DNA of 59,118 bases from Streptomyces virus LukeCage (IMGVR_UViG_2974629454_000001:1-59118); one strand, 5' to 3'; shown: positions 1-12,593, numbered from the stretch's first letter. Notes: generated from the sequence alone by a model not told the origin. Numbers and translations are program-made.

Positions 1-284
1 GTGCAGGTAATCGAAAGGTTTCGTAAGCACATTTCCTTCATTTCTAAGGTCAGAAGGGGGTTCCAGCCTTCAATATGCAGCCAACATAGCCAGCCAGCCT
101 AATAAAGTATCGATTCAAGGGTGTAGACGGCCTCTAAAAACCAGCAAAAATAGCCCCAAAACCTGCCAAATCTGCCAATAATCGGCCCAAATCCTTCGAA
201 AACACAGTATTTCCCCGAGATTTTACACTCATTCGTAAAGCCGAAGGCAGATAGACCTTAGAATCATAGGTCAGATTGTCTATT

Positions 285-381
285 TAGCCTTAGATTCACA
301 GCCAGACTACTCAATTGATCAATCAGCCTACTATGACAGCCAAAGTATGCAGCCATGGCTATACAGCCTGCATACTCAGCC
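285..381. repeat. Phased (C/T)AGCC repeat array near the presumed genome end
   Basis: TAGCC at 285; CAGCC at 299, 324, 337, 350, 364 and 377 (13-14 bp period, one slot missing). Confidence 0.6.
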
Positions 382-401
382 AAGACAGATTGATTGTGTT
401 G

Positions 402-574
402 TGTCTTATATGTAGAATTGACCCGGTGGAGTATTGGTTGGCTCTCTATGTCTTATATACAAGGACACCTAATGCCACCGGCCAACAATCTCTCCTTGTC
501 CTATGTCTTATATCAGAAAACAGAAGAAGCCTCCCAAAAAGCGGGAGGCTTTGTTTCATGTCTTATATAAGACA
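402..574. repeat. Four TGTCTTATAT direct repeats, the last within a 16-bp palindrome
   Basis: Copies at 402, 449, 504 and 559; TGTCTTATATAAGACA at 559-574 is a perfect palindrome. Confidence 0.75.
527..551. terminator. GC hairpin, possible bidirectional terminator
   Basis: AAGCCTCCC-7nt-GGGAGGCTT flanked by A-rich and T-rich sequence. Confidence 0.55.
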
Positions 575-869
575 GACCGAACTAGCAATCAGAATCTTCC
601 GCAGATTTTAGAGCCATTCGTAAATGCGCTTCGATGATCTTTGTCAGATCTTCCGGGAATTTCAGGCCCATTCGTAAAGGGCGAAAACTCGGACATGTAG
701 GACAAATCAAAAATCAGACTGGTAGTCATTGTGTTAGTTAGGCTAAGCAATGAACCGGGGCGGTTAAATTGAAAGGTCCCTGGGTTGCAGCCGACCATCT
801 GCTATTTAACCCCTTGCCCGAATGGACTGATAGGGGACCCAGGAACACACCTTATGACCTCACTACAAT

Positions 870-898
870 AGTGTAACAAGGTCATTGCTCTGTGTCAA
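870..898 (-). promoter_or_regulatory. Sigma70/HrdB-type promoter with no convincing downstream ORF
   Basis: TTGACA-17-TACACT on the minus strand. Confidence 0.75.
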
Positions 899-1102
899 TC
901 ACCACTGCAATTCGTCAGTGACGTTGTAGTGCGAGACGAACGGCACGACCCAACGGGAATTCAGGAGCTTTCCCTTCTCCTCCCACAGAGTGAGAGTGCC
1001 AGTCTTGACATCGAACTCGATGCCATTGTCCATGATGCCTGTGAACTCCAGCTCCCTTCGAACACCCTCTTCGAGAACGATCACAGTCACAGTGCGAGTC
1101 AT
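899..1102 (-). CDS. Hypothetical early protein (67 aa)
   Basis: Start moved to MTRTVTV behind a GAAGGGA RBS and a promoter; host-like codon usage. Confidence 0.75.
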   Translation of the reverse strand: MTRTVTVIVLEEGVRRELEFTGIMDNGIEFDVKTGTLTLWEEKGKLLNSRWVVPFVSHYNVTDELQW

Positions 1103-1185
1103 GTTCTGTCCCTTCGTTGATACTAGTCTAACAGAGTACAAGGGAGCTGTCTACCACCGGGCCAAAATAACCGGGGCGGCCAAAA

Positions 1186-1205
1186 GCCCCCGCCTAAGCG
1201 GGGGC
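1186..1205 (-). terminator. GC hairpin after the DUF932 gene
   Basis: GCCCCCGC-CTAA-GCGGGGGC just past the stop. Confidence 0.6.
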
Positions 1206-1212
1206 CGTTGAC

Positions 1213-2214
1213 TCAGGCAGCCAGGGAGTAACCCAGGACGACCTTACGGATCTTGTTCTTCTCGGTGTTCGTGACCGGGTCGAATCCGGAAGCGGCGGCG
1301 AACAGGTTGTCCACCTCACCCTTACGCGGCATACGGTACCAGTCCTTGAACTCAGTGAAGGCGTTCAGCGCACCGGCCATGGTACCGGCCAGAGACTGAG
1401 TGGTCTTAGGACCGTCGCCCGTGTCGGTGAAGATGCCCATGTGCAGATCACGCTTGTTGTCCCACTTGACCTGAGAACCCTTGACGTTCTCCTTGGGACG
1501 CTCACCGTAGATCGCAGCGAACATCTCATCGAACTTGTCCTTCGTGCACTGCACGCGGAACAGCTCGTTCATCTCACGCTCGAACTCATCCGCGTACGTG
1601 AACGTGATGCTCAGTGCCTCACGCGCGGCGGCCATGCGACCCTCGATGGTCTGAGTGTGGCGCATCTTGAACTGCTGCTTCACACCGTTACGGAGTGCGA
1701 AGTTCAGCGTGTTCTGACACACGACACGGACCGGAGTGACGCTCACCTGAACAGCGAGAGAACCATCGTGGGAGGTGTTCACGAGCAGATACATGTTCGT
1801 GACATCCTCGTCACCGACCAGCACCTCACGACCGATACGCAGAGATCCGAAGACCTGCGTACCATCCTTGATAGAACCAGCCGTCTCCCAGACGCCACCA
1901 CCCGCAAGGATGCCGTCACCGAATGCGAACAGCTCCTCATTCTGGACGACCTTATACCGCTCCGCGACGATACCAAGGCTGTCAGCCTCACCATCGAACG
2001 GGTTGGTACGGATCACCTCGAAGGCACTCTTCTTGGCGCGACCCTTACGCTCCAACAGCTCCAACCGAACATTCCAGTCGGAAAGGTGGGCGAGTCGCAG
2101 CATCTCAGAGGTGGTGAGTTCCCCGTCGAAGACGGTGCCAAGCTGGTGCCATGCGGGCTCCAGACGAGAGGCGAACGCGACCTGACCACGGGAACCGATT
2201 TCGAGACCGTGCAT
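1213..2214 (-). CDS. DUF932-family protein (phage/plasmid-like TIGR03299 type)
   Basis: MHGLE..AWHQLG..Y.VVQN.ELF..WETAGS..G..VFG..NTSHDGS..V.VTPVRVVCQNTL..HT; AGGAG RBS before ATG 2214. Confidence 0.85.
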   Translation of the reverse strand: MHGLEIGSRGQVAFASRLEPAWHQLGTVFDGELTTSEMLRLAHLSDWNVRLELLERKGRAKKSAFEVIRTNPFDGEADSLGIVAERYKVVQNEELFAFGDGILAGGGVWETAGSIKDGTQVFGSLRIGREVLVGDEDVTNMYLLVNTSHDGSLAVQVSVTPVRVVCQNTLNFALRNGVKQQFKMRHTQTIEGRMAAAREALSITFTYADEFEREMNELFRVQCTKDKFDEMFAAIYGERPKENVKGSQVKWDNKRDLHMGIFTDTGDGPKTTQSLAGTMAGALNAFTEFKDWYRMPRKGEVDNLFAAASGFDPVTNTEKNKIRKVVLGYSLAA

Positions 2215-2423
2215 TTTTGCTCCTAGTGTAGGTGTTTCTTCTAGCTTACTTGCACGGAGACTACTTGTCAAAGTAGTCAGAGAGCACACTGTTGAGTTGA
2301 TCAAGAACAGATCATCCAAGGCTTCGGGCTTTCGCCTTCCCCCTTGCTGATAGCTCAAGTCTAACAGAGTCTAGGGTGTTGTGTCTACATGGTTCAAGGG
2401 AGATCATTTCGCCGGGGCGGCTT

Positions 2424-2443
2424 GTGGCCCCCGAAGGGGCCAC
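2424..2443 (-). terminator. GC hairpin with a UUCG loop on the transcribed strand
   Basis: GTGGCCCC-CGAA-GGGGCCAC; similar hairpins near 3318, 4932, 5393, 6016, 6305, 6785, 7314, 7767, 8560 and 9274. Confidence 0.65.
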
Positions 2444-2449
2444 CGCTAA

Positions 2450-2842
2450 TTAGGGAATCATCCCCAGAGGTTCGAACGTTCCGATAATCTCGGAATCCTT
2501 CACCGCCGCCACAGACTGATAGGTACCGGGTCGCACCTCAGACTTAGTGTCGTAGGCGACGACCATGTAACCAGCGTCGTCCAGGTCATAGCCGAAGTCA
2601 TCGAACCATTCGGCCACCTGCTCAGGAGACGTGAGAACACAGAACTCATTGGGCATGATACCGCCCGGCACATCGGTCCACGGCGTGGGGTGCGTCTCGT
2701 CGGTGTGCTCACGGCACAGACGGTTGGAAACGGACTTCACCTGCGGGTCGAAAGAGTCGAAACCCTCTCGATACGGACCGGCCCACTTACCCGTACGGTT
2801 GCCCTCATGCGTCGGGGGAAGGGCAACACGGTAAACGATCAC
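2450..2842 (-). CDS. Hypothetical early protein
   Basis: 130 aa, GTG start, GGAGG RBS, own promoter and hairpin. Confidence 0.8.
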   Translation of the reverse strand: MIVYRVALPPTHEGNRTGKWAGPYREGFDSFDPQVKSVSNRLCREHTDETHPTPWTDVPGGIMPNEFCVLTSPEQVAEWFDDFGYDLDDAGYMVVAYDTKSEVRPGTYQSVAAVKDSEIIGTFEPLGMIP

Positions 2843-2953
2843 GTTTCCTCCTAGGTTTCCCTGGTTGGTAGTCCTAGTCTAACGTAGTGTCAGCAGAGAT
2901 CGCAACACAATCAACCATGATCTTTTGACCGGGGCGGCCCGAAGGCCGCTGTG

Positions 2954-3301
2954 TCAAGTGCCCATACGAATGATCATCTGTTCGATGATGAACCGGCACA
3001 CAGAAGCTCGGTTGTATTCGTCGTCATTGCGCGTAGTACCCGCAGCTTCCTTGGCAGCCATTGCGTTAATGATTCCGATAGCCAGATCGAACAGAGGCTT
3101 TTGCAATTCCTCATGCTGGCTACACATCAGATACGCAAGGGTGTGAGCGTTGAATGTACGCTTATCGAGTACAGAGAGAATCTTGTCGGCATCCTTTTCC
3201 GCCGCGCTCCGCCGTGTAGACGTAGTACGTGCGCCCTGATAGACATCAGGAGCAATTACCGAAACCTCTGCCAGACGAAAGATATCGCCATTGCGTGCCA
3301 T
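2954..3301 (-). CDS. Hypothetical early protein
   Basis: 115 aa, GGAGG RBS. Confidence 0.8.
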   Translation of the reverse strand: MARNGDIFRLAEVSVIAPDVYQGARTTSTRRSAAEKDADKILSVLDKRTFNAHTLAYLMCSQHEELQKPLFDLAIGIINAMAAKEAAGTTRNDDEYNRASVCRFIIEQMIIRMGT

Positions 3302-3342
3302 TGTGCCTCCAATGGAACGGCCCCCTTTCGGGGGCCGTAGCC

Positions 3343-3504
3343 TTACTTGGGTTCGAAGTCTTGCGTATTCCCATATCCATCAGTTACGCTGACAGACATA
3401 CCGAGTACCGTTGCCAGGAAGGGGCCGAGAGCTTGGATCATGCTCCATGCCTGGTCTTCCTGGTCATCTCCATTGGGCTCGATTTCGAGCATCACGTTAG
3501 GCAT
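3343..3504 (-). CDS. Small acidic hypothetical protein (53 aa)
   Basis: Manually translated MPNVMLEIEPNGDDQEDQAW...DFEPK; follows the lsr2 stop and is followed by a hairpin. Confidence 0.65.
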   Translation of the reverse strand: MPNVMLEIEPNGDDQEDQAWSMIQALGPFLATVLGMSVSVTDGYGNTQDFEPK

Positions 3505-3513
3505 AGGTCTACC

Positions 3514-4026
3514 TTACTTGACCTTGACCTCTACGTCAAGACCCAGCACCACCGGGCTGCCGCAGGAACAGTGAGACAGGCTGTAACCGCACTTGCACGC
3601 CTCACGCTCGTTGAAGCGCCACACCTTGCCCTTACGGTCGACGGCCACGTACTCCGTGTTACGGCCACGGGTAGCAGGCGCAGCCGGGCGAACGTCCTTA
3701 CCGGTGGTCACCTTCACACCGGTAACAGCCGCAGCCTTGACATCCGGATTGGCCTTTGCGTACGCCTCCAGGATCTCACCGGAGATACGGCCACGGGAGT
3801 TGATCTCGATACCGTTGGCCTTAGCCCACGTGCGAACCTTCTTAGCGTCGTAGGCACCAGCCTTGACAGCAGCGGGCTTGTTGGTACGCACCACGCCAGT
3901 GTCAGCGAAGACGGTACCCGCAGCCTCAGCAGCCTTGATCGCCTCGTTTGCTGCCACACTCATTCGACCACGCTTGCCCATCTCAGCGAGACCGAGGGAA
4001 GCGGCGTACTCACGGCGAGTCTGCAT
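3514..4026 (-). CDS. lsr2: Lsr2-like DNA-binding protein
   Basis: VRTWAKANGIEINSRGRISGEILEAY matches the Lsr2 C-terminal RGR AT-hook domain; second degenerate copy at the N-terminus; Cys cluster at the C-terminus. Confidence 0.85.
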   Translation of the reverse strand: MQTRREYAASLGLAEMGKRGRMSVAANEAIKAAEAAGTVFADTGVVRTNKPAAVKAGAYDAKKVRTWAKANGIEINSRGRISGEILEAYAKANPDVKAAAVTGVKVTTGKDVRPAAPATRGRNTEYVAVDRKGKVWRFNEREACKCGYSLSHCSCGSPVVLGLDVEVKVK

Positions 4027-4137
4027 TTGGTTCCTTCCGTTGTCCTTCGTTGTACCTTAAGCATAACAGAGCAAGGGGGACGGGGCAACATGAAATTATG
4101 TCCGGTTTGTCTCGCCGCCCCGGCCCGAAGGCCCGCA

Positions 4138-4860
4138 CTATTTCTTAGTGCGAGAGAACCGGATATCAGCCTTACCGAAGATACACAGGCCGCACGTTAC
4201 GCACGCGCCACCCTTTTCGGTAATCAGAGGAATCTGCTTAGCATTCTCGGGACACTTTCCACCGGGAACACCAGTCAGAGTTTCGAAGATCTCTTTGCCC
4301 TCGTTGAAGGTTTCTCCCAGATATGCCATTTTGACACCGGGATTGTCAGCCGCGCAAAGAAGCCCGGCGTTAAGGTTTTCCTTGTCTACACTAAGGTAGA
4401 CAGCCATGTTGGGGAATCCGTAGATGCATTCCACGTACTGGAATGAACGGGTGTAAATCCAGAATTGCACATCAGGGTGGTGATAGACCACATAGTTGAT
4501 GGCAATTGCATATTCCTCGGAGAAGATATCCCCGTCAGCGTGCCAACGGAAATACTTAGGCACGTTGTACTTTTCGCACTCCGCCTCGAATTCATCGATC
4601 ATCTGCGTCAGGAGCTTGACCATTACGCCATAAGGCGCATCCTTAAGCAATTCCCAGTTGTGCATAGCAACAGCAAGGAATGCGGGATACTGCTTTTCGA
4701 TCCTACCGGCATAGCAGATGCTCTCACATACACCGGTCGCACCGGGACAAGAGAACGCCTTACCGGACGGCAGAGAGAATGCGTTTTTGATGAGCGACTG
4801 CTTACCCGCAGTGTTGGCTCGGACGGTGGTCTTGCGGTCGTTCGTTCGCTTGAGTCCCAT
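4138..4860 (-). CDS. GP88-like (radical-SAM-like fold) protein
   Basis: FSLP..CPGATGVCESICYA and YFRWHADGDIF motifs; apparently leaderless (TAGGAT-6nt-ATG). Confidence 0.7.
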   Translation of the reverse strand: MGLKRTNDRKTTVRANTAGKQSLIKNAFSLPSGKAFSCPGATGVCESICYAGRIEKQYPAFLAVAMHNWELLKDAPYGVMVKLLTQMIDEFEAECEKYNVPKYFRWHADGDIFSEEYAIAINYVVYHHPDVQFWIYTRSFQYVECIYGFPNMAVYLSVDKENLNAGLLCAADNPGVKMAYLGETFNEGKEIFETLTGVPGGKCPENAKQIPLITEKGGACVTCGLCIFGKADIRFSRTKK

Positions 4861-4963
4861 GGATTCATCCTAGCAGACGTAAGAGAGAGAATCAACATGC
4901 TTGAGTCAAGATCTTTTGACCGCCCCGGCCAAACGGCCCCCGAAGGGGCCGTTGGCTTTCTGA

Positions 4964-5128
4964 TTACTTGGGAGCGACCTCGAAGTCGTCCAGGCCGAGC
5001 GCGATGGTCTCGAACTCGGTACCCATGTTGTCGGTCATCTCGGCGACGATGTTGCGAACGAGGGCGACACGCACGGTGGCGGTCATGGGGGTCTCGGCGA
5101 TGACCTTGGCGATGGCGAGAGCCTTCAT
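4964..5128 (-). CDS. Small hypothetical protein (54 aa)
   Basis: Manually translated MKALAIAKVIAETP...FEVAPK; strong GC3 bias, own promoter, hairpin after the stop. Confidence 0.75.
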   Translation of the reverse strand: MKALAIAKVIAETPMTATVRVALVRNIVAEMTDNMGTEFETIALGLDDFEVAPK

Positions 5129-5183
5129 TTTGGAGCCTTTCGTCGTGGTGTGTTCTTAGTCTAGCGGATGGAACTTGGTTTGT

Positions 5184-5282
5184 CTACTCGCAGTCGACCA
5201 GAATTTCCATGTCGTCCAGGTGAGCGTCGGCACCGTAGGTGTCGTCCTGCTCGTCCTCAATCTTGGCAAGGGTGACAGCCAT
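5184..5282 (-). CDS. 32-aa highly acidic peptide
   Basis: MAVTLAKIEDEQDDTYGADAHLDDMEILVDCE; GAGAGGTGG RBS, own promoter. Confidence 0.65.
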   Translation of the reverse strand: MAVTLAKIEDEQDDTYGADAHLDDMEILVDCE

Positions 5283-5414
5283 CTCAACCACCTCTCTGGG
5301 AGGTTTCCCTCCCTTTCGATGTCTCTAGTCTAACAGACGTAAGCGATGATGTACAACGGGTTCTCAGCATGATCTTTTGACCGGGGCGGTTCGCGCCCCG
5401 AAGGGCGCTAGCCG

Positions 5415-5909
5415 TTAGCGAGGGTTACAGATTCCGCAGTCCCAGCCACAACCGTAACTGTCGTAGCTGTAGCTGTTCTCGTAGCTCAGACGCGCAGCCT
5501 CTTCGGCCTTCTCGATCTTCTTGACCTCCGCGTCGATCATGTCCTTCGCGTCCTTGAGGCTGAGGAACGGGAAGTCGTTGCGGAGACGCTTGATGCACGT
5601 GATCTTGTAGAGCTTGCCGATCTCCTTGACGATCTTCGGAGCGGCCTCACGCGCCTGGTTGTAAGCGAAGTCCTCGATTCCACGCAGACGAACCAGCTCG
5701 CTCTTTTCGAGCGTCAGACCCTCGTTCTTGAGCTGGATCTGACCCGCGACCTTACCGGCCTCGTACCCGTCCGTGTAGCTCTTGTCGGATGCCGCGAGAA
5801 GGGTCATGTCGTGGTAGTTCTTGATCCTGTCAGCCACGTCCATGGCCTGCGTGAAGCCCATCTCCACACCCTCGTCGAGGAAGATCTTCAAAACGTCCAG
5901 GGCGTCCAT
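5415..5909 (-). CDS. Protein with a ribosomal L7/L12 C-terminal-like motif
   Basis: KITCIKRLRNDFPFLSLKDAKDMID resembles the bL12 CTD motif K..VIK.VR..TGLGLKEAK.LV. Confidence 0.65.
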   Translation of the reverse strand: MDALDVLKIFLDEGVEMGFTQAMDVADRIKNYHDMTLLAASDKSYTDGYEAGKVAGQIQLKNEGLTLEKSELVRLRGIEDFAYNQAREAAPKIVKEIGKLYKITCIKRLRNDFPFLSLKDAKDMIDAEVKKIEKAEEAARLSYENSYSYDSYGCGWDCGICNPR

Positions 5910-6039
5910 GTGTTCCTCTCTTAGAGGGAGTGTCCCTCTTTGATGTCTCTACTATAGCAAGGAAAGGGGACCGGATGCAACACAGTCCACGAAGATCTTT
6001 TCGCCGGGGCGGCTAGGCCGCCCGAAGGCGGCCCGCTGC

Positions 6040-6228
6040 TCAGTATGCGATGTTGAGCTGGAGGTGATCCACCTTCTCGAAGTTGATCACATGGACACCA
6101 CCGTCAGTGCTCTCGATGAGAGCGACCTTACTGTACAGCTTCTCCTGAACGGCTTCCACGTTACCCTTCGCACGGAACTTGACGGGCTGGTCGCGGTCGC
6201 TGTAGTAGACGGTGACGTGAGTGTTCAC
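6040..6228 (-). CDS. Hypothetical early protein
   Basis: 62 aa, GGGAGG RBS, GTG start, own promoter. Confidence 0.75.
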   Translation of the reverse strand: MNTHVTVYYSDRDQPVKFRAKGNVEAVQEKLYSKVALIESTDGGVHVINFEKVDHLQLNIAY

Positions 6229-6329
6229 TTTGCCTCCCGGCCTCGTTGATAGCTCTAGTCTACATGAACAGAGTCAGGATTACAACCCCGAACCGGGGCG
6301 GCTAGAGGGGCCGAAGCCCCTCCGCCTTT

Positions 6330-6689
6330 CTACCGACGACCCATGGGAAAACCCTTACGCGCTGCCTCCCTTTCCAGCTCCCATCCGTTGTTCGTCTCGC
6401 TGGGGTGAACGTATTCGATTTCCTTGATGCCCAGCAGATAGGCGACGAGCAGACGGTGATGACCGTTGGTCACACGGTTACGCTCAGGGCTGTACACGAT
6501 GGGCGTTTTGATGCCTTCCTTCTCGATGCTCTCGATGAACGCACGGGGCAGCTCATCGAACTTAGCGAGCATGCACTTTTCCTTGTCGTCCATGTAGCGG
6601 GAACCGTAGTTGCCCGTACGAGAGTCGGAAGCGTCTCCGAAGATCGCATCGTGCCAGAGCTTTTCCACGTTCGCCTGGGGCATCTTCAC
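6330..6689 (-). CDS. ParB/sulfiredoxin N-terminal domain protein
   Basis: SIEKEGIKTPIV..VTNGHHRLL.A.LLG matches the ParB-N signature; no room for an HTH. Confidence 0.75.
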   Translation of the reverse strand: MKMPQANVEKLWHDAIFGDASDSRTGNYGSRYMDDKEKCMLAKFDELPRAFIESIEKEGIKTPIVYSPERNRVTNGHHRLLVAYLLGIKEIEYVHPSETNNGWELEREAARKGFPMGRR

Positions 6690-6809
6690 TCCAAGTTTTC
6701 TCGCCCTGTTGGTAGTTATAGTCTAACGGATGATGTGATGGGGAGTCAACTCAACCCATCAAGATTTTTAGCCGGGGCGGCTAGGCCGCCCGAAGGCGGC
6801 CCGCCATGA

Positions 6810-6953
6810 TCAGACCCAGTTCCAGCCGAGGTGAAGAAGGGCACCGACGATCATGATCAGAAAGGCACTGACACCAGCATTGACGAGAAAGAGCAGAACA
6901 GCCTGCGGGCCGGTGCAGTTGGAAGCGGTGATCGGACCCTTGACGTTGTACAT
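6810..6953 (-). CDS. Small membrane protein (47 aa)
   Basis: Manually translated; AGGAG RBS; long hydrophobic segment AVLLFLVNAGVSAFLIMIVGALL. Confidence 0.65.
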   Translation of the reverse strand: MYNVKGPITASNCTGPQAVLLFLVNAGVSAFLIMIVGALLHLGWNWV

Positions 6954-6960
6954 GTCACTC

Positions 6961-7077
6961 CTAGAGAAAGGCGAAGAGCACAGTCTTTGCTGTCCACAAG
7001 CCTAGCATAAGTAGGCCGATCAGGAAAGGTATGAGAACTAGTAGTCCTGCACACCCGACGATCTTTATCAGACCCAC
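6961..7077 (-). CDS. Possible small membrane peptide (38 aa)
   Basis: GTG start overlapping the upstream gene; hydrophobic; no clear RBS; codon usage less host-like. Confidence 0.4.
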   Translation of the reverse strand: MGLIKIVGCAGLLVLIPFLIGLLMLGLWTAKTVLFAFL

Positions 7078-7226
7078 TCAAGGGGGTCGTAGTCGAAGAT
7101 GTCACGGTGATCACGGTAGCGATCTGCACGCTGCCTCTTGATCTCACCGAGCTTCTTGATTTCCTTGACGCGCTTGGTCTGCGCCAGGTATCGCTCGTTC
7201 CGCAGCCTACGAAGATCTTCTCGCAT
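7068..7226 (-). CDS. Small basic hypothetical protein (52 aa)
   Basis: MREDLRRLRNERY...DYDPLEWV; GAAGGGA RBS, own promoter. Confidence 0.7.
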   Translation of the reverse strand: MREDLRRLRNERYLAQTKRVKEIKKLGEIKRQRADRYRDHRDIFDYDPLEWV

Positions 7227-7337
7227 TTCGTTCCCTTCGTTGTGTCTCTAGTATATACAGAGGTGGGAGGGAAGCGCAACATAGATCTTCAAGATCTTTT
7301 CGCCGGGGCGGCTTGCGCCCCGAAGGGCGCAGCCTTA

Positions 7338-7676
7338 TCAGTCTCGGATGTTCATGACCTCACGGTAGAACCGAAGGTAGGCATCCGCAGCGTCCTCGGC
7401 ATCCTCCAAAGACTCGTAGTCACCGAATCCGTCAAGAGTGGTCATGGTGAACGCTCCCTCTTCGTTGCGGGAAGCGTAGCGGAGGCTGTACGACTTGTCT
7501 TCCGGGTCCGATCGGTATTCGGAAGTGATGAAGATCGATCCGCGCTGACCGATGGGGAAAACGTTCGGCTGGAGTTCCGTGTTGAAGAACTCCATAGACC
7601 CCTTCGTGAACCAGTGTCGGGCGGTGGAGTTGGACTCACGGGACGCCTTGACGATCTGGTGCATCGTGGAGAACAT
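7338..7676 (-). CDS. Hypothetical early protein
   Basis: 112 aa, GAGAGG RBS, own promoter and hairpin. Confidence 0.8.
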   Translation of the reverse strand: MFSTMHQIVKASRESNSTARHWFTKGSMEFFNTELQPNVFPIGQRGSIFITSEYRSDPEDKSYSLRYASRNEEGAFTMTTLDGFGDYESLEDAEDAADAYLRFYREVMNIRD

Positions 7677-7788
7677 TTACGTTCCTCTCGCTCGGTGTAA
7701 GACGAGTCTAACACACTCATAGGACAGAACACAAGCCCTCTAGCAAATCAGCCGGGGCGGCCAAACGGCCCCCGAAGGGGCCAGATGA

Positions 7789-7899
7789 CTAGCGACCTTG
7801 CTTCAAGATCGCATCGATGCCATAGAGGAGAATGATTCCCAGTCCGATGGTGTATGAACCGCTGATTACCGAGAGGTACAGAATCATGATCGCTTCCAT
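7789..7899 (-). CDS. Small membrane peptide (36 aa)
   Basis: TGATG coupling with the upstream gene; MEAIMILYLSVISGSYTIGLGIILLYGIDAILKQGR. Confidence 0.55.
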   Translation of the reverse strand: MEAIMILYLSVISGSYTIGLGIILLYGIDAILKQGR

Positions 7900-8165
7900 C
7901 AGAGAACCGGCTTCTTGCCGAGTCCCATGCTCTTGCCGAAGTCGTAGGACTTGCCCTTGACCTCGTATCCCGGAAGAACCTTGGTCACACGGAACGGAGC
8001 GGCACGGTGGAGGGCGGACAGCTTCTCAGCAGAACCCGCAGCCTCGACGTAGACCTTACCGGAACGCTCGTTGACTCGGTACTCGAACTCCACTCCGTAC
8101 ACGGTGGCCATCGTGATGACGACACCAGCGCGCTTGACGGAAACCTCGCCCATGAGAACGGCCAT
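7899..8165 (-). CDS. Hypothetical early protein
   Basis: 88 aa, GAAAGG RBS, own promoter. Confidence 0.8.
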   Translation of the reverse strand: MAVLMGEVSVKRAGVVITMATVYGVEFEYRVNERSGKVYVEAAGSAEKLSALHRAAPFRVTKVLPGYEVKGKSYDFGKSMGLGKKPVL

Positions 8166-8199
8166 TGTATTGCCTTTCGTTCGGTGTTACTAGAGTCTA

Positions 8200-8478
8200 T
8201 CAGATGCGGTGGACGTTGTCACGCAGTTCGTTGAACGTGTGCGGACTGGTGACGATCTCAGCGTTGCGGTAAAACCCGTGATCCACAAGGACCGTTACCG
8301 AGTTATACACAACGTTCTGTACCGTTCCAGTGTACGCGATCTTGCCGTCAATTTCAAGGCCCTCGTTCAGATAAAGCTGAGCCCAACTGTTGACGACTAC
8401 GACCCTGTCACCCGTACGGAGCTTGCCGAAGTTGCTTTGCAGATACTTGCGAATCCTGTAGCTGAGAGGCATCGCCAT
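8200..8478 (-). CDS. Hypothetical early protein
   Basis: 92 aa, GGGAGAG RBS, own promoter. Confidence 0.75.
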   Translation of the reverse strand: MAMPLSYRIRKYLQSNFGKLRTGDRVVVVNSWAQLYLNEGLEIDGKIAYTGTVQNVVYNSVTVLVDHGFYRNAEIVTSPHTFNELRDNVHRI

Positions 8479-8588
8479 GATCTCTCCCCTTCGTTAAGAC
8501 GAGTCTACATGACGCCGGGCGAGATTGCAACACTTTTTCAAAAAAGCCGGGGCGGCCAAACGGCCCCCGAAGGGGCCGTTGGCTTTGA

Positions 8589-9161
8589 TCAGCCGTTCAT
8601 GCCGCATCCGCACGGGCAAGAACCCTGGAAGGACTCTTCGGAGGACTCGATGGACTCGCGGGCCACGTCGTTCGTCGTCAGCTTCTCACGCAGCGCATTG
8701 AGCGCGGACTGAGTGGCCAACTCGGGCTCGGGCTTCGGGGAGTCCTTCTCGACCTGCTCGATCTTGTCCCATTCGAGCTGATCGGTGGTCCCGACCGGCG
8801 TGATCATGTCCACGATGGACTTCGCCTCGATGAGACCCAGCGGACGGAACTTGTCACGCAGAACCTTGATGCAGGTGATCTTGCGGGTGAAGTCACGCGG
8901 CGTGAAGTTCGCCACGGCCCACGCAGTTGCGGAAACCACGTTCGGGTCGAAGGTGGCACGAATGGAGTTCTTGCCAGCCTCCACACCAGCGTCGTAGCGC
9001 TCCTGACCGTACGCGTACTTCGCGTCCTCGGCCTTGTACTTCTCGTCTTCCATCTTGCGACGGAAGCCACGGTCGATGTCACCCGCGAAGCGGAGAGCGT
9101 CAGCGATCTTGGTGTCGGGGAAGTAGTTGCCGACCTGCTGAACGATCTCGATGCGCTCCAT
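8589..9161 (-). CDS. Second protein with an L7/L12 C-terminal-like motif
   Basis: KITCIKVLRDKFRPLGLIEAKSIVD; also shares a Y..GYEAGK/YDAGVEAGK segment with 5415-5909. Confidence 0.65.
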   Translation of the reverse strand: MERIEIVQQVGNYFPDTKIADALRFAGDIDRGFRRKMEDEKYKAEDAKYAYGQERYDAGVEAGKNSIRATFDPNVVSATAWAVANFTPRDFTRKITCIKVLRDKFRPLGLIEAKSIVDMITPVGTTDQLEWDKIEQVEKDSPKPEPELATQSALNALREKLTTNDVARESIESSEESFQGSCPCGCGMNG

Positions 9162-9296
9162 GAGGTTTCCCTTCGTCTTAGGGGACTTCTTGCCCCCTTC
9201 GATGTACTAATCTTAGCAGAGCCTAGCGGGCTGTGTCCAACTGTTCTTTCAAGATTTTTTGGCCGGGGCGGTTCGCCGCCCGAAGGCGGCTAGCCG

Positions 9297-9593
9297 TTAC
9301 TCCCAAGGTGAGTAGTCAGACTCACGCTCGGCAGGCTTACGCTCGATACGGTCAAGGTAGCGGCCGGTGCTGTTGACGGACCAAATGGCCCTACGCCCGT
9401 TGTTGCTGTAACGCTTCTTGGTCAGCCTCTTGAGAACGGTCTCAGCCTCACGACGAGAGCGAACCTTGACAGACACGCAGGGCTCACGGTAGTTGTAGTA
9501 CCATCCGCCCTCTTCCGGACCACCGCACGCGAGGTCTTCGAGATAGATGTTGGCGTAGAACGGCTTGGGCTTACGAACCTTGGGCGTCTTCAT
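9297..9593 (-). CDS. Hypothetical basic early protein, leaderless
   Basis: Start moved to MKTPKV, 7 nt after a TAGACT -10. Confidence 0.75.
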   Translation of the reverse strand: MKTPKVRKPKPFYANIYLEDLACGGPEEGGWYYNYREPCVSVKVRSRREAETVLKRLTKKRYSNNGRRAIWSVNSTGRYLDRIERKPAERESDYSPWE

Positions 9594-9671
9594 AGGGATG
9601 AGTCTAGCAGAGTATTGGGCCGGTGGCAACAGATTCTCAATTTAGCCGGGGCGGCCCCGAAGGGCCTGACG

Positions 9672-9902
9672 TTACCGCCAGAGGAATTGACCTTGACATG
9701 CACAGTCGTTGGGAACCTTGTCTACCTTCTTGAAAGCACGAATGATCGTCTCTCGCGGGTAGACAGCTCGCAGGCACTCACGAGGGTTGTGGTGACCTAC
9801 CTTGATCCACTGGTCTACGACTTCCACATAGAGGAAAGTCTGTTCGTGTCCGGTCTGCTTCTCTTGCTGAACGTAGACTTCGCCCTCAGAGATCCATTCC
9901 AT
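9672..9902 (-). CDS. Hypothetical protein (76 aa)
   Basis: Start moved to MEWISEG, coupled to the upstream gene by TGATG. Confidence 0.7.
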   Translation of the reverse strand: MEWISEGEVYVQQEKQTGHEQTFLYVEVVDQWIKVGHHNPRECLRAVYPRETIIRAFKKVDKVPNDCACQGQFLWR

Positions 9903-10057
9903 CACACACTCCTGGTCTTGATCTTCTCGCACTTCACGCACTTGCGAACCTGCATGGGCTGAGTCCACGTGACAGGCTTACCCTTGATCCAACCCATAAG
10001 AGGGCTGTCCATGTGAGCAGTGACGAGAACCCACTTCGTCCACTTGTGACGGCACAT
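9902..10057 (-). CDS. Small Zn-ribbon-like protein (51 aa)
   Basis: Manually translated MCRHKW...RKCVKCEKIKTRSV; TAATG and TGATG overlaps on both sides. Confidence 0.7.
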   Translation of the reverse strand: MCRHKWTKWVLVTAHMDSPLMGWIKGKPVTWTQPMQVRKCVKCEKIKTRSV

Positions 10058-10260
10058 TACGAAAGCCTCCCACAGATGCACTTGATCTTGTCGCCGGGTT
10101 CCATGTACGTCTCGATGGTGTACTGCGGGATCATCATCGTGGTGCAGTCGTCGTCGCTCGTGTGGATCACGATGAACGCCTGATCACTGATCAGATCGAT
10201 GATCTCCGTGCGGCAGTTCGGGTCGGACTTCTTCGGCTGCATGATGTCTCCGGGCTTCAT
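10057..10260 (-). CDS. Hypothetical protein, leaderless
   Basis: 67 aa; ATG 6 nt after TAGACT. Confidence 0.75.
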   Translation of the reverse strand: MKPGDIMQPKKSDPNCRTEIIDLISDQAFIVIHTSDDDCTTMMIPQYTIETYMEPGDKIKCICGRLS

Positions 10261-10459
10261 GTATGAAGTCTAGCACTCGGATTGGATGAGATGCAAGCCC
10301 TACGCCGATTTTTTAGTCTCTAGATGTCTACACAGATTTTTAGTCATCTAGCCGGGGCGGCTAACTTTTTAGTCAGAAAATCACCCCTATGATTCGAAGG
10401 TTTTTCGCGCATATACCTAAGAAACACAGGGGTGAAAATCTAAGCGAATTTATTCAGAT

Positions 10460-10684
10460 TCACCAGAGTTCGTCCACTTTGGCCCAGAATCGGTGGACTC
10501 GCGGATCGTTGTTGTCGTTTGCGTAGAACGGATCATGAATTGTGCCCGTCAACGCATTTGCGATTTCGGGCCGGTGGACAGCAACTCGATTGAATACGAA
10601 TTGCCCATAACGCTGCCCCTTGTTGTCGCGCATCCATTCTGCGATGGTATCGAGAATGAATTGATTCAAGGACAGTTCGGCCAT
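10460..10684 (-). CDS. Hypothetical protein
   Basis: Start moved to MAELSLNQF just after the upstream stop. Confidence 0.65.
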   Translation of the reverse strand: MAELSLNQFILDTIAEWMRDNKGQRYGQFVFNRVAVHRPEIANALTGTIHDPFYANDNNDPRVHRFWAKVDELW

Positions 10685-10688
10685 TAAG

Positions 10689-10940
10689 TCACTTCCAATC
10701 GGTGGGAAGTTCGCCAGATTCGATGATGTTCTTTTCCATTCGCTCGAAAACGACCTTTGCCCCGATGAAAGAGGCAATCAGCTTGTTTCCTTGCGCAGTC
10801 ATCGACCTTTCGAGCAACATTCGCAATTCTTCGAGATCCTTTTGCAGTTGCTGCTCAACATACATAGGTTTCACCCTTTCCAGTTCCACAAAGGCAATAT
10901 ACGGAATGCTTTGCTTCCACCGGGCGAAATCCGCCTTCAT
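10689..10940 (-). CDS. Hypothetical protein
   Basis: 83-aa helical ORF; start uncertain. Confidence 0.55.
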   Translation of the reverse strand: MKADFARWKQSIPYIAFVELERVKPMYVEQQLQKDLEELRMLLERSMTAQGNKLIASFIGAKVVFERMEKNIIESGELPTDWK

Positions 10941-11124
10941 TGTACTTTTTCAGAAGGATTTCGAGATTTCCCGAAGAAATTACGCCCGTTTCGGAAAACA
11001 GGCCGTTCTTTTCGAGCTTGAGGGTAAGCGAATGTGTACGAACGGCTTTTGCCCTATTCCTGAACATTGCTTTCCCTTTCTACCCCTAATGGGGGATACC
11101 CTTTCGGATATCCCCCATATTGAG

Positions 11125-11328
11125 TTACGCCAGTTCGGAAACGTGCGGATAGTCGGTTTCGTCCATGTCCACCGTACGCATGTCGTCCTGTACGGTAGAT
11201 ACGGGCAGGGTGCTCACAGAGACCCATCCCTCAGAGACGGCCCGCTCCAGAAGTTCGAGAGTGGTCAAGTTGATCAGTCCCTTCCGTCTTGGTGTAGTAC
11301 CAGTATACACAGCCCATACGCTGTGCAC
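11125..11328 (-). CDS. Hypothetical protein
   Basis: 67 aa, GTG start, plausible codon usage. Confidence 0.5.
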   Translation of the reverse strand: MHSVWAVYTGTTPRRKGLINLTTLELLERAVSEGWVSVSTLPVSTVQDDMRTVDMDETDYPHVSELA

Positions 11329-11442
11329 AACCTAGATCCTCCGGGAAATTTTTGTACGCTTTCGTACACGCGCGGGGGATTTGTCCGGGAATTCCGTAAT
11401 GCCCTCTTAAAGAGGAATGCCCCCTATGCGCTGCATGCCCAG

Positions 11443-11516
11443 TGTGTACCCATATGGTAGGGTATGTACCCTATGTACCATATGCCCTATATGTACCCCT
11501 ATGTACCAGTATGTCC
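11443..11516. repeat. TATGTACC tandem repeat cluster
   Basis: Exact copies at 11463, 11472, 11490 and 11500 plus degenerate ones. Confidence 0.75.
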
Positions 11517-11645
11517 GATTTGTCCGGCCGCCCCGGTCGGCAATCCTTTACCAAGCCGTTACCTAAAAACCTCGGATTCAGGGGTTTTCCCGTGTGTGGT
11601 GGGGTAGTCTGTAGGTACAACGACAGAGACAAGGGAGACAGCGAC

Positions 11646-12104
11646 ATGATCACCACCACCGCCCCGGTTACCCACAACAGCAACACTCACCAGTGCAGGG
11701 ACAACGACCGTACGGCCGGTAGCGCGTACCGTAGGCAGCTTCTCGCTACGGTCCTGTACCTGGCTAGCCTTACGGGGCACTCGGACGGTGAGACGTACGC
11801 TGTGTGTGTGGGTTGTGGTGAGAATGCATACGTGGGGGGTGCACCCCGGAACATGGACACGCTGAACCTTGGTCACTGTGAGGCAGACGCAACGGGGGGT
11901 ACCTACTGCGCTGCGAACATGCTCCCCCTGTGCAGGCAGTGCAACGAGGACATGGGTAAGGATGCCCTTACCGATGTGCTTGTCCCCCTGTATGACAACC
12001 GTCACATGTGGGACGGTAAGTTGATCAAGGACAGTGGCAAGGTTAAGCAGGAAGCGCAGGCAAACCGAGGACGTGCCAACTGGAAGCGCCCTGCGAGCGT
12101 CTGA
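11646..12104 (+). CDS. HNH endonuclease
   Basis: CVGCG..LNLGH....GG....NMLPLCRQCN; AAGGGAG RBS; the only rightward gene I found in the left arm. Confidence 0.75.
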   Translation: MITTTAPVTHNSNTHQCRDNDRTAGSAYRRQLLATVLYLASLTGHSDGETYAVCVGCGENAYVGGAPRNMDTLNLGHCEADATGGTYCAANMLPLCRQCNEDMGKDALTDVLVPLYDNRHMWDGKLIKDSGKVKQEAQANRGRANWKRPASV

Positions 12105-12119
12105 GACGCTTTGAGAGTA

Positions 12120-12150
12120 GCCCCTAGGTCTGAGTACCTAGGGGCACTTT
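12120..12150 (+). terminator. Intrinsic terminator after the HNH gene
   Basis: GCCCCTAGGT-6nt-ACCTAGGGGC-ACTTT. Confidence 0.7.
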
Positions 12151-12347
12151 CATGCCCGGAGACGGGCGCACACGGCTTTTGAAAGCCGTTTTCAAATGGC
12201 CTGCCATGCCCTGTGGAACCTTCCCCGGAGAGAATGTCAAGGGATATGGGCGCACTAATTGAATTGTTACAAAGGTATGCGAAGCATGTATCGTACATGA
12301 TAGAAAATTACTAACATTTCAAAATCAGAAATAGATGATCTTGTATG

Positions 12348-12593
12348 TTAGCCGTCCCGGTCAGGCCAGTCGTTTAGAAGGTCAAAACCAACAACGTGCA
12401 TACATGGCTCAAAACGGGCGTGATAGGCGCACTCGCAATTAAAACAATCCGGGGTGACCATTATAGTCGTTGGTTCTTTTCCGCAATGCAGACAGTTCGG
12501 AAGACCTAGACCATGGTACTCCAATGCTTGATAGTCTAAACAGAAAGCGCTGTATTGCTGAAATCCAATAAGACTGTCAATCTTGTGTGTCAT
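12348..12593 (-). CDS. Cys-rich hypothetical protein
   Basis: CLHC..CECAYH..C. Confidence 0.6.
   Translation of the reverse strand: MTHKIDSLIGFQQYSAFCLDYQALEYHGLGLPNCLHCGKEPTTIMVTPDCFNCECAYHARFEPCMHVVGFDLLNDWPDRDG

What the first reader, a model, noticed from the sequence alone, without database searches (positions are those of the whole stretch)
755..11536. 17 copies of an orientation-flipping CCG-(GGG/CCC)-CGG site that punctuate the early gene cassettes
Seen: the 9-mer sits between the hairpin ending one gene and the -35 of the next promoter, usually with a GATYTTTT flank. Fewer than one copy is expected by chance in 11.5 kb, and I noticed none in the rest of the window. The arms CCG/CGG are palindromic. 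At 4115, 4920 and 11528 only the 3-bp core is flipped, and at 4920 the GATCTTTTGA flank stays in place. Inference: this symmetry favours a dsDNA site for a dimeric protein, or a crossover site with an asymmetric core, over an RNA signal. Possible roles are cassette shuffling (cf. T4-type promoter/stem-loop cassettes), a shut-off operator for early promoters, insulation, or staged DNA entry. I do not recognise a described system of this form.
Basis: partly seen in the sequence, partly recalled or inferred. Interest (0 to 1): 0.8.

Follow-up and report, generated by a model that had tools for sequence, protein, structure and literature searches.

The report
Palindromic boundary boxes between phage early genes
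A short GC-rich palindrome brackets every early-gene cassette in the 12.3-kb terminal repeat of a large lytic Streptomyces phage and occurs nowhere else in its genome; it is read as double-stranded DNA, probably by a phage protein (best candidate: the repeat's own HNH nuclease), and related phages gain and lose cassettes at it.

Summary
CCGGGGCGG/CCGCCCCGG occurs 18 times in the window (17 in the stated range, one more at 11659), against 0.13 expected. All copies lie in the 12,291-bp direct terminal repeat of a 133-kb cluster-BE (Karimacvirus) Streptomyces phage. None lies in the 108.6 kb of unique DNA.

Read in the gene direction, each junction runs: stop codon, GC hairpin with a UUCG-type loop but no U-tract, box, sigma-70-like promoter. 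Boxes bracket every transcription unit, including both ends of the array.

At 53 orthologous junctions in four relatives, 48 boxes are unchanged and 3 have only the core flipped. One has a point change and one is an alignment artefact. The flanks are only 88% identical. The allowed set (GGG or CCC core only) is closed under reverse complement, so duplex DNA is read, not RNA.

Other lineages carry their own symmetric versions in the same slot. Cassette gains and losses break at the box. In phage Bmoc the box type follows the HNH nuclease clade, not the flanking genes, so HNH is the best candidate reader but is not proven.

Whether the box acts as an operator or as a nick/cut site is open. The scan noted this element before, on the other repeat copy and in relatives. 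No paper describing it was found.

The parts
1..12291 (.). Direct terminal repeat (identical copy at genome 120905-133195); the only place the box occurs
   Evidence: 12,291 bases, 0 mismatches between the two copies; GC 52-57% against about 47% elsewhere
755..763 (-). Box 1, the left end of the array after the last gene; no UNCG hairpin and no clear promoter next to it
   Evidence: StarPlatinum has a 136-bp insertion exactly at 763/764
1171..1179 (-). Box 2; hairpin 1186-1205 (UUAG loop, CUUUUGG tail); promoter -35 at 1148-1153 and -10 at 1125-1130
   Evidence: Karimac, Yaboi and Wofford carry an extra gene here, flanked by two boxes
2412..2420 (-). Box 3; hairpin 2424-2443 (UUCG loop); -10 TAGACT at 2368-2373
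2929..2937 (-). Box 4; hairpin 2934-2949 overlaps the box by 4 nt
4115..4123 (-). Box 5, core flipped; hairpin 4122-4133 overlaps it; lies upstream of the Lsr2 operon promoter (-35 at 4083-4088); a CGGACA half-site at 4099
4920..4928 (-). Box 6, core flipped with flanks unflipped; hairpin 4932-4953; promoter 4867-4895
   Evidence: start of Yaboi's extra ParB-like cassette
5381..5389 (-). Box 7; hairpin 5393-5408; promoter 5327-5356
   Evidence: left breakpoint of the Wofford two-cassette deletion
6004..6012 (-). Box 8; hairpin 6016-6033; promoter 5951-5980
   Evidence: left breakpoint of the Yaboi deletion
6293..6301 (-). Box 9; hairpin 6305-6322; promoter 6257-6285, only 7 nt from the box
   Evidence: right breakpoint of both the Yaboi and Wofford deletions
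6772..6780 (-). Box 10; hairpin 6784-6801; promoter 6720-6749
7303..7311 (-). Box 11; hairpin 7314-7331; promoter 7250-7279
7752..7760 (-). Box 12; hairpin 7767-7782; promoter 7705-7734; core flipped in Yaboi
8547..8555 (-). Box 13; hairpin 8559-8580; promoter 8502-8530
9263..9271 (-). Box 14; hairpin 9275-9290; promoter TTGGAC-N19-TAAGAT read by eye
9646..9654 (-). Box 15; hairpin 9653-9666 overlaps it; promoter 9601-9629
10352..10360 (-). Box 16; no GC hairpin; sits among three GACTAAAAA repeats; promoter 10267-10296, 55 nt away
   Evidence: its orthologue in Karimac is the only degenerate copy found
11528..11536 (+). Box 17, the right end of the array, between the first minus-strand promoter region and the + strand HNH gene; next to TGTCCG half-sites and TATGTACC repeats
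11659..11667 (+). Box 18, inside codons 5-8 of the HNH gene; conserved in all five Karimacviruses and in Bmoc
11646..12104 (+). HNH endonuclease gene (152 aa), candidate reader of the box
3301..3343 (-). Control: GC hairpin (GAAA loop) inside an operon, with no promoter after it and no box

Best explanation
The 9-mer is the invariant core of an 11-bp dyad box, R-CCG-(GGG/CCC)-CGG-Y. It is recognised on double-stranded DNA by a phage-encoded protein that binds symmetrically, or at least regardless of orientation.

One box brackets every early transcription unit of the terminal repeat: about 16 units and 17 boxes, plus one box inside the HNH gene. Each box sits between a hairpin that ends the upstream mRNA and the host-type promoter of the next unit. 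The hairpin has an RNA-type tetraloop but no U-tract.

The most likely effect is operator-like shut-off or insulation of the early cassettes. Because the box is the only exact repeat shared by all junctions, it is also where cassettes are gained, lost and swapped.

The best candidate reader is the repeat's own HNH endonuclease. If that is right, binding may come with nicking.

Shown here: the anatomy, the restriction to the terminal repeat, purifying selection on the duplex sequence, concerted lineage-specific box types, and breakpoints at the box. Inferred: that a protein binds, which protein, and what binding does.
For: (1) Restriction to the repeat. The genome has 18 copies per repeat and none in 108.6 kb of unique DNA. 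The same holds in StarPlatinum, Karimac, Yaboi, Wofford and Bmoc.

(2) Not a general promoter or terminator part. Thirteen UNCG/GNRA hairpins in the unique region lack the box, and about nine of them run into a T-tract. Six TTGnnn-N17/18-TAGACT promoters in the unique region also lack it.

(3) The duplex is what is read. Of 53 orthologous junctions located by flanks alone, 48 are exact, 3 have only the core flipped, 1 has a point change and 1 is a gap artefact. Flank identity is 0.88, so about a third would be expected unchanged. There are no one-mismatch copies in the repeat. The motif is invariant beside 30 different hairpin stems. Some boxes overlap the hairpin stem.

(4) Concerted, symmetric lineage-specific versions occupy the same slot: GACCG-GCC-CGGTC (Tomas), GGCCG-CCC-CGGCC (Bmoc), TGTCCG-NNN-CGGACA (Jay2Jay, MulchMansion), TGTC-SG-NNN-CS-GACA (Peebs), TGGCGCC-C-GGCGCCA (Coruscant) and GTGCGCC-C-GGCGCAC (Mandalore).

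(5) Bracketing pattern BgBgBg in the window and in Coruscant. A hairpin with no promoter after it has no box. In Coruscant the box lies 23 nt from the -35 in most copies, by my count from the sequences.

(6) Reader candidate. In the HNH tree Bmoc groups with the Karimac-box phages (support 99/98), and the AU test rejects placing it with its own genus (p=0.0097). DUF932 and Lsr2 reject the opposite grouping (p=8e-53 and 2e-6). HNH is the only repeat-encoded protein with this pattern.
Against: No binding has been shown and no transcript data were available.

The distance from box to -35 is variable in this phage (7, 14-18, 22-26 and 55 nt) and not in helical phase, which is unusual for a simple operator. 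Box 755 has no evident promoter after it.

No classical dimeric DNA-binding domain was found among the repeat's proteins.

The HNH is a minimal, apparently catalytically intact nuclease with no separate DNA-reading domain. That fits cutting better than repression.

The HNH-box link rests on one independent contrast (Bmoc), and about 15 unique-region segments show the same Karimac-like pattern in Bmoc.

About 85% of boxes share one orientation relative to transcription in three genera. That could reflect common ancestry or a weak functional polarity.
Confidence: 0.45

Rival explanations
1. The box is mainly a cut or nick site for the repeat's HNH endonuclease, comparable to the localised single-strand interruptions that phage T5 makes with its HNH enzyme SciA. 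Its selected role would be a DNA transaction, not transcription control: recombination between the two terminal repeats for concatemer formation, or excision and rejoining of cassettes.
For: The HNH clade tracks box type in Bmoc, against the trees of the flanking genes. HNH is the only repeat protein to do so.

The catalytic H, N and Cys residues are invariant. Boxes lie before and inside the HNH gene.

The all-or-none exactness resembles a nuclease site. Indel breakpoints fall on the box: 8 of 44 alignment ends within 6 nt against 2% by chance, and 8 of 22 intergenic ends against 8.6%.

Boxes bracket the array even where there is no promoter (755) or no upstream gene (11528).

Precedent: T5 has a 10-kb terminal repeat and site-specific nicks at R/GCGCRGG made by sciA/sciB (PMC3517423). 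SciA is an HNH-type enzyme solved on GCGC DNA (PDB 9qgx title).
Against: Known nick sites (T5, phiKMV-like phages, tf) are asymmetric, lie on one strand and are spread over the genome. Here the site is a dyad, 4 of 18 copies are inverted, and all are confined to the repeat.

Breakpoints at the only exact repeat shared by the junctions are also expected from ordinary homologous or microhomology recombination.

Structural similarity to SciA is weak (Z 2.7), and the matches are generic HNH folds.

Confidence: 0.3
2. The box acts in the RNA. It could be a small second hairpin (3-4 bp stem, 3-nt loop), a pause or termination signal that replaces the missing U-tract, or a processing site just after the stabilising hairpin.
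For: The box sits 0-6 nt after a hairpin whose loops (UUCG 60, GAAA 4, UCCG 3, UACG 1, GCAA 1 of 77) mark it as an RNA structure on the sense strand.

The box occupies the place of the U-tract: a mean of 1.4 T in the 9 nt after the stem, against 3.8 for hairpins in the unique region.

About 85% of boxes share one orientation relative to transcription. The arms could pair, and the CpG steps stay in place when the core flips.
Against: C-rich and G-rich cores are both maintained exactly, with no other core allowed. That makes sense for a duplex but not for an RNA reader.

There is no covariation beyond R/Y at -1/+9 and none at -2/+10, and 36 of 95 flank pairs are not complementary.

Several boxes overlap the main hairpin stem, so the two could not both fold. 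Boxes 755, 10352 and 11528 have no such hairpin.

The sequence, not just the pairing, is uniform within a genome, whereas the neighbouring true RNA hairpin varies freely. Rfam finds nothing.
Confidence: 0.07
3. The box is read by a host protein, or has no function of its own and is carried along in a duplicated junction module kept uniform by gene conversion.
For: All junctions plausibly descend from one module. Early promoters must work before any phage protein exists.
Against: The flanks of orthologous junctions diverge (88% identity) and paralogous flanks are only 20-50% identical, while the 9-mer stays exact. So selection acts on the box itself.

Box types differ between genera that share hosts (S. 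griseus, S. lividans).

A 72% GC host genome would hold about 1,700 chance copies of the 9-mer, making it a poor host-specific signal (my own estimate).

In Bmoc all boxes differ from those of its genus-mates although the flanking genes are orthologous.
Confidence: 0.06

Closest known systems
PeSL (promoter-early stem-loop) cassettes of T4-type phages (Arbiol et al. 2010, PMC2839356)
   Same: Both have repeated intergenic modules combining a host-type early promoter with a stem-loop. They flank small genes of unknown function in a plastic region. Relatives differ by insertions, deletions and replacements that break at the modules.
   Different: PeSLs have two parts, and the stem-loop lies within or overlaps the promoter. 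Here the hairpin lies upstream and separate, and a third, invariant palindromic element sits between hairpin and promoter. That element changes in concert between lineages. The array here is confined to a long terminal repeat.
KorB O_B operators of plasmid RK2 (core TTTAGCGGCTAAA; McLean et al. 2025, PMC11790492; the number of sites and their varied promoter distances are from my own knowledge)
   Same: Both are 13-bp palindromes with an odd G/C centre, present in many near-identical copies. They lie at variable distances upstream of the promoters of a co-regulated gene set and work regardless of orientation.
   Different: KorB is a ParB-family CTPase clamp with a helix-turn-helix domain. The repeat's ParB-like protein is only 119 aa, with a weak match to the ParB N-terminal segment and no DNA-binding domain detected. 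It does not track box type.
Conserved inverted repeats (CIRs), the operators of the c repressor in the early region of Streptomyces phage phiC31 (own knowledge; the original papers are not in the searchable library)
   Same: Both occur in a Streptomyces phage as many copies of a conserved inverted repeat in intergenic regions of the early genes, near promoters and terminators.
   Different: phiC31 is temperate and its CIRs serve immunity. This phage group is described as lytic. The sequence and length differ, no repressor homologue was identified, and here the sites are restricted to the terminal repeat and double as indel junctions.
Localised nick sites of phage T5 (R/GCGCRGG; sciA/sciB), phiKMV-like phages and phage tf (PMC3517423; PDB 9qgx)
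   Same: T5 is also a large siphovirus with a roughly 10-kb terminal repeat. It has a short GC-rich site recognised by a phage HNH-type enzyme, present in multiple exact copies.
   Different: Known nick sites are asymmetric, all on one strand, and scattered over the genome. The boxes here are dyads, occur in both orientations, lie only in the repeat and always at cassette boundaries. Nicks have not been looked for in this phage.
Stoperators of mycobacteriophage L5 (own knowledge)
   Same: Both are many copies of a short site in short intergenic regions of an actinobacteriophage, thought to be bound by one phage protein that acts on transcription.
   Different: Stoperators are asymmetric, depend on orientation, are spread over the whole genome, and belong to a temperate phage's immunity repressor.

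Membership tests
PeSL cassettes (T4-type phages) | Intergenic composite of a sigma-70-like early promoter and a stable stem-loop | tested here: met
   Fourteen of 17 junction boxes adjoin a GC hairpin, and 13 or more are followed by TTGnnn-N17/18-TAnnnT
PeSL cassettes (T4-type phages) | Modules lie at the breakpoints of insertions, deletions and replacements between close relatives | tested here: met
   about five independent events break within or beside the box
PeSL cassettes (T4-type phages) | Two-part module with the stem-loop placed within or overlapping the promoter and no further invariant element (PMC2839356) | tested here: not met
   The hairpin is upstream and separate. An exact 9-mer lies between hairpin and promoter
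ParB/KorB-type palindromic sites (parS, O_B) | Multiple copies of a 13-16-bp palindrome that works regardless of orientation | tested here: met
ParB/KorB-type palindromic sites (parS, O_B) | A cognate ParB-family protein with CTPase N-domain plus helix-turn-helix DNA-binding domain | tested here: inconclusive
   The repeat's ParB-like protein (6333-6689, 119 aa) has no Pfam hit and only weak PHROG matches to the ParB N-terminal part. The rest of the genome was not screened for a full-length ParB
T5-type localised nick sites | Phage-encoded HNH-type nicking enzyme | tested here: inconclusive
   An HNH with invariant catalytic residues is present. Its fold matches are generic, and SciA scores only Z 2.7
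T5-type localised nick sites | Asymmetric site, with all copies on one DNA strand | tested here: not met
   The site is a dyad with 14 copies in one orientation and 4 in the other
T5-type localised nick sites | Physical single-strand interruptions in virion DNA at the sites | not testable with these tools
Intrinsic (Rho-independent) terminator, with the box as part of it | GC-rich hairpin followed directly by a U-tract | tested here: not met
   A mean of 1.4 T in the 9 nt after the stem in the repeat, against 3.8 in the unique region. The box takes the place of the U-tract
phiC31 CIR / repressor operators | Conserved inverted repeat in many intergenic copies within the early region | tested here: met
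phiC31 CIR / repressor operators | Bound by the phage immunity repressor of a temperate phage | not tested
   No repressor homologue was sought. The group is described as lytic (PMC12509530 abstract; PMC7650747)
Integron attC-type cassette sites | Imperfect inverted repeat at the 3' end of each cassette, recombined by a tyrosine integrase | tested here: not met
   No integrase domain was found among the repeat's proteins. The cassettes carry their own promoters, and the site is a short exact dyad

The most novel reading that the evidence does not exclude
The boxes and the repeat's HNH nuclease form a self-contained cassette-exchange system for host-takeover genes. The nuclease cuts at the dyad around its asymmetric 3-bp core, so that excised promoter-gene-hairpin cassettes can rejoin, within a genome or between co-infecting phages, only in the correct orientation. 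That would be an integron-like or 'Golden-Gate-like' shuffling device without an integrase. The same cuts in the two terminal repeats would seed the recombination that makes concatemers.
Probability: 0.12. Interest if true: 0.9.

Novelty: new variant of a known kind. Interest (0 to 1): 0.65.

Why it matters
Cluster-BE phages are the actinobacteriophages with the longest terminal repeats, and those repeats hold some 20-25 early genes, nearly all of unknown function. A single exact DNA word bracketing every one of these cassettes, changing in concert between lineages and tracking one nuclease gene, gives a concrete handle on two open questions. One is how a large lytic phage switches its host-takeover genes as a block. 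The other is how such gene sets are reshuffled so quickly.

It is directly testable with one protein and one oligonucleotide. It would also supply a set of orthogonal protein/site pairs (six or more box types) of possible use as tools in Streptomyces.

Tried and rejected
So no RNA-seq, read-start or nick evidence could be sought, and read laying was not used.

Rfam at permissive threshold on 1-12500 gave no match.

Pfam and PHROG scans of 20 repeat-encoded proteins gave DUF932, Lsr2 DNA-binding domain, GP88, DUF7447, weak HNH_5 and weak ParB-like matches. No helix-turn-helix or ribbon-helix-helix protein appeared. PDB sequence searches for the HNH and the ParB-like protein found nothing significant.

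Distant HNH homologues from metagenomes lie on contigs of 0.6-3 kb, too short to show arrays. In the phage collection the family occurs only in these Streptomyces phages. So no lineage outside the group could test the HNH-box link.

A first discordance metric (Bmoc identity minus kin identity to the window) was dominated by spurious frames and was replaced (then 89).

The idea that the 5' half of the box extends the terminator stem (GGCGG/CCGCC pairing) holds at only about half the sites and fails at flipped copies, so I did not pursue it (by eye).

A class-I-activator reading was rejected because box-to-promoter distances are not in helical phase.

A paper search for the box sequences found only unrelated eukaryotic GC-box and G-quadruplex papers. 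The Coruscant and BE1 genome papers mention no such motif.

Full report
**What the window is.** The first 12 kb match the left ends of cluster-BE Streptomyces phages, with StarPlatinum closest at 90-95% identity. The window is bases 1-59118 of a 133,195-bp genome whose first 12,291 bases are repeated exactly at the right end. Such repeats of about 11 kb, holding 20-25 small genes including an lsr2-like gene, are the published hallmark of this group and have been compared with T5 and SPO1 (PMC5764925). The genes in the repeat run on the minus strand, except for one HNH gene at its inner end. An earlier scan note names the phage LukeCage; I did not verify that.

**Observation.** The 9-mer occurs 18 times against 0.13 expected. 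Only GGG and CCC cores occur. All copies lie in the terminal repeat, none in the 108.6 kb of unique DNA, and the repeat holds no one-mismatch variant. In StarPlatinum, Karimac, Yaboi and Wofford the whole-genome counts (36, 38, 44, 36) are exactly twice the counts in the first 14 kb. The same restriction to the repeat holds in Bmoc.

**Anatomy, read in the direction of transcription**. Each junction runs: stop codon, GC-rich hairpin, 0-6 nt (sometimes overlapping), box, an A-rich stretch in about half the copies, then TTGnnn-N17/18-TAGACT-like promoter, leader and start codon. Across five Karimacviruses, 77 of 95 boxes have the adjacent hairpin. Its loops are UUCG (60), GAAA (4), UCCG (3), UACG (1) and GCAA (1). 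These are the extra-stable RNA tetraloops, and they read that way only on the sense strand. The stems come in 30 versions. So the hairpin is an RNA element free to vary, while the box beside it does not vary.

The hairpins are not canonical terminators. They average 1.4 T in the nine bases after the stem, against 3.8 for the 13 comparable hairpins of the unique region. None of those 13 carries a box. The same promoter type occurs six times in the unique region, also without a box. A hairpin inside an operon (3301-3343) with no promoter after it has no box. Boxes bracket every transcription unit, including one after the last gene (755) and one beyond the first promoter (11528). Coruscant shows the same pattern.

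**DNA or RNA?** I located each window junction in four relatives by its flanks alone. Of 53 orthologous junctions, 48 keep the 9-mer exactly and 3 have only the core reverse-complemented. One is a gap artefact and one has a point change. The flanks are 88% identical, so about a third would be expected unchanged. A C-rich word and a G-rich word are equivalent only as duplex DNA. Flank positions show no pairing covariation beyond R/Y at -1/+9, and several boxes overlap the main hairpin stem. This puts an RNA reading at a low probability.

**Lineage-specific versions.** The same slot is filled by:
- GACCG-GCC-CGGTC in Tomas (18 copies)
- GGCCG-CCC-CGGCC in Bmoc
- TGTCCG-NNN-CGGACA in Jay2Jay and MulchMansion
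- TGTC-SG-NNN-CS-GACA in Peebs
- TGGCGCC-C-GGCGCCA in Coruscant
- GTGCGCC-C-GGCGCAC in Mandalore

. Both half-sites change together, the version is uniform within a genome, and the centre is loosely constrained in several lineages. Orthologous junctions, for example around the DUF932, Lsr2 and GP88 genes, carry different boxes in different lineages. Concerted change of about 16 sites per genome is what co-evolution with one genome-encoded, two-fold-symmetric reader predicts. By my count from the sequences, most Coruscant boxes lie 23 nt from the -35. In the window the gap varies (7, 14-18, 22-26, 55 nt).

**Cassette exchange.** Homology with relatives breaks at the boxes. StarPlatinum has an insertion at 763/764. 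Karimac, Yaboi and Wofford carry an extra gene between two boxes at the 1171 position. Yaboi has an extra ParB-like cassette starting at 4926. Deletions run from 6027 to 6293 in Yaboi and from 5395 to 6293 in Wofford. Eight of 44 alignment ends lie within 6 nt of a box centre, against 2% by chance. Among intergenic ends it is 8 of 22 against 8.6%, P about 3e-4. The ends are not all independent; they represent about five events. This matches the PeSL picture in T4-type phages (PMC2839356). It does not by itself separate site-specific cutting from recombination at the only exact repeat the junctions share.

**Who reads it?** Nine repeat-encoded proteins are shared by three genera: DUF932, g4, g5, Lsr2-like, GP88, g10, ParB-like, g19 and HNH. 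None has a recognisable dimeric DNA-binding domain.

Following a lead from an earlier scan note, I tested the HNH. Bmoc is a Samistivirus, yet it carries the Karimac-type 9-mer. In the HNH tree Bmoc groups with the Karimac-box phages (support 99/98), and the AU test rejects placing it with its own genus (p=0.0097). DUF932 and Lsr2 place it firmly within its genus and reject the alternative (p=8e-53 and 2e-6). Among repeat-encoded proteins only HNH shows this pattern. However, about 15 segments of the unique region do too, including small proteins of unknown function, a MazG-like enzyme and a junction resolvase.

The HNH family occurs only in these phages. A confident model (pLDDT 86) shows a minimal HNH fold with invariant catalytic residues and no extra domain. 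Its matches are generic: Cas9 HNH Z 6.5, PacI 4.0, T4 endonuclease VII 3.5, T5 SciA 2.7. I put HNH as reader at about 0.4.

**What does it do?** Two readings remain close. The second is a nick or cut site of the HNH, as in T5, where an HNH enzyme makes site-specific nicks of unknown function (PMC3517423). I favour the first slightly, because the box goes with promoters and the early array needs coordinated control. The nuclease candidate, the bracketing of the array ends and the breakpoints keep the second alive.

**Novelty.** No paper describing these boxes was found. The scan itself has noted the element before, on the other repeat copy of this genome and in relatives. My results agree with those notes. 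They add the duplex-versus-RNA test, the unique-region controls, the missing U-tract, the formal tree tests, and the caveat that HNH is not the only discordant gene.

Noticed in passing
window 10300-10375 and 11460-11525: The two boxes without hairpins sit in repeat-rich DNA. Three GACTAAAAA copies (minus strand; 10310, 10337, 10366) surround box 10352. Four TATGTACC copies (11463-11500) and two TGTCCG half-sites (11512, 11521) precede box 11528. TGTCCG/CGGACA is the half-site of the Samistivirus box type, and it also occurs next to box 4115 (at 4099), ahead of the Lsr2 operon.
   Followed up: partly
window 1-12291 versus the rest: The terminal repeat is 52-57% GC while the rest of the genome is about 47%. 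The early array is thus compositionally distinct and nearer to the 72% GC host.
   Followed up: no
window 5290-5330, 5930-5950, 9200-9240 (minus strand leaders): Several early mRNAs start with a conserved leader (ACATCGAAAGGG-like) followed by a small GNRA-loop hairpin such as GGGAGG-GAAA-CCTCCC before the ribosome-binding site. This suggests a shared 5'-UTR element.
   Followed up: no
L006 (Coruscant) intergenic regions, e.g. 6375-6495 and 7969-8094: In Coruscant a second inverted repeat (TAGATGT-N5-ACATCTA-like) fills the spacer, typically 23 nt, between box and -35. This would be a second operator-like site absent from the window phage.
   Followed up: no
window 3517-4026 (minus): The Lsr2-like protein has the Lsr2 DNA-binding domain at residues 57-92, followed by a roughly 75-residue C-terminal extension with a CxC...CxC cysteine cluster. 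The extension is not covered by any Pfam family.
   Followed up: no
window 5418-5909 and 8592-9161 (minus): Two repeat-encoded proteins (164 and 190 aa) are paralogues (PHROG 5819). Both have weak, sub-threshold similarity to the ribosomal L7/L12 C-terminal domain and end in Cys-rich tails.
   Followed up: no
window 12005-12307: The roughly 200 bp after the HNH gene, which contain the inner boundary of the terminal repeat (12291), share the HNH gene's Karimac-like affinity in Bmoc. The nuclease gene and the repeat boundary may be inherited together.
   Followed up: partly
genome 105,900-109,100 (beyond the window; locus L035): A block of five small genes of unknown function (PHROGs 13828, 7955, 13443 and two with no family) is shared between Bmoc and the Karimac-type phages. 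In MulchMansion and Jay2Jay it is absent or much more diverged. It is a mosaic segment and an alternative place to look for the box reader.
   Followed up: partly
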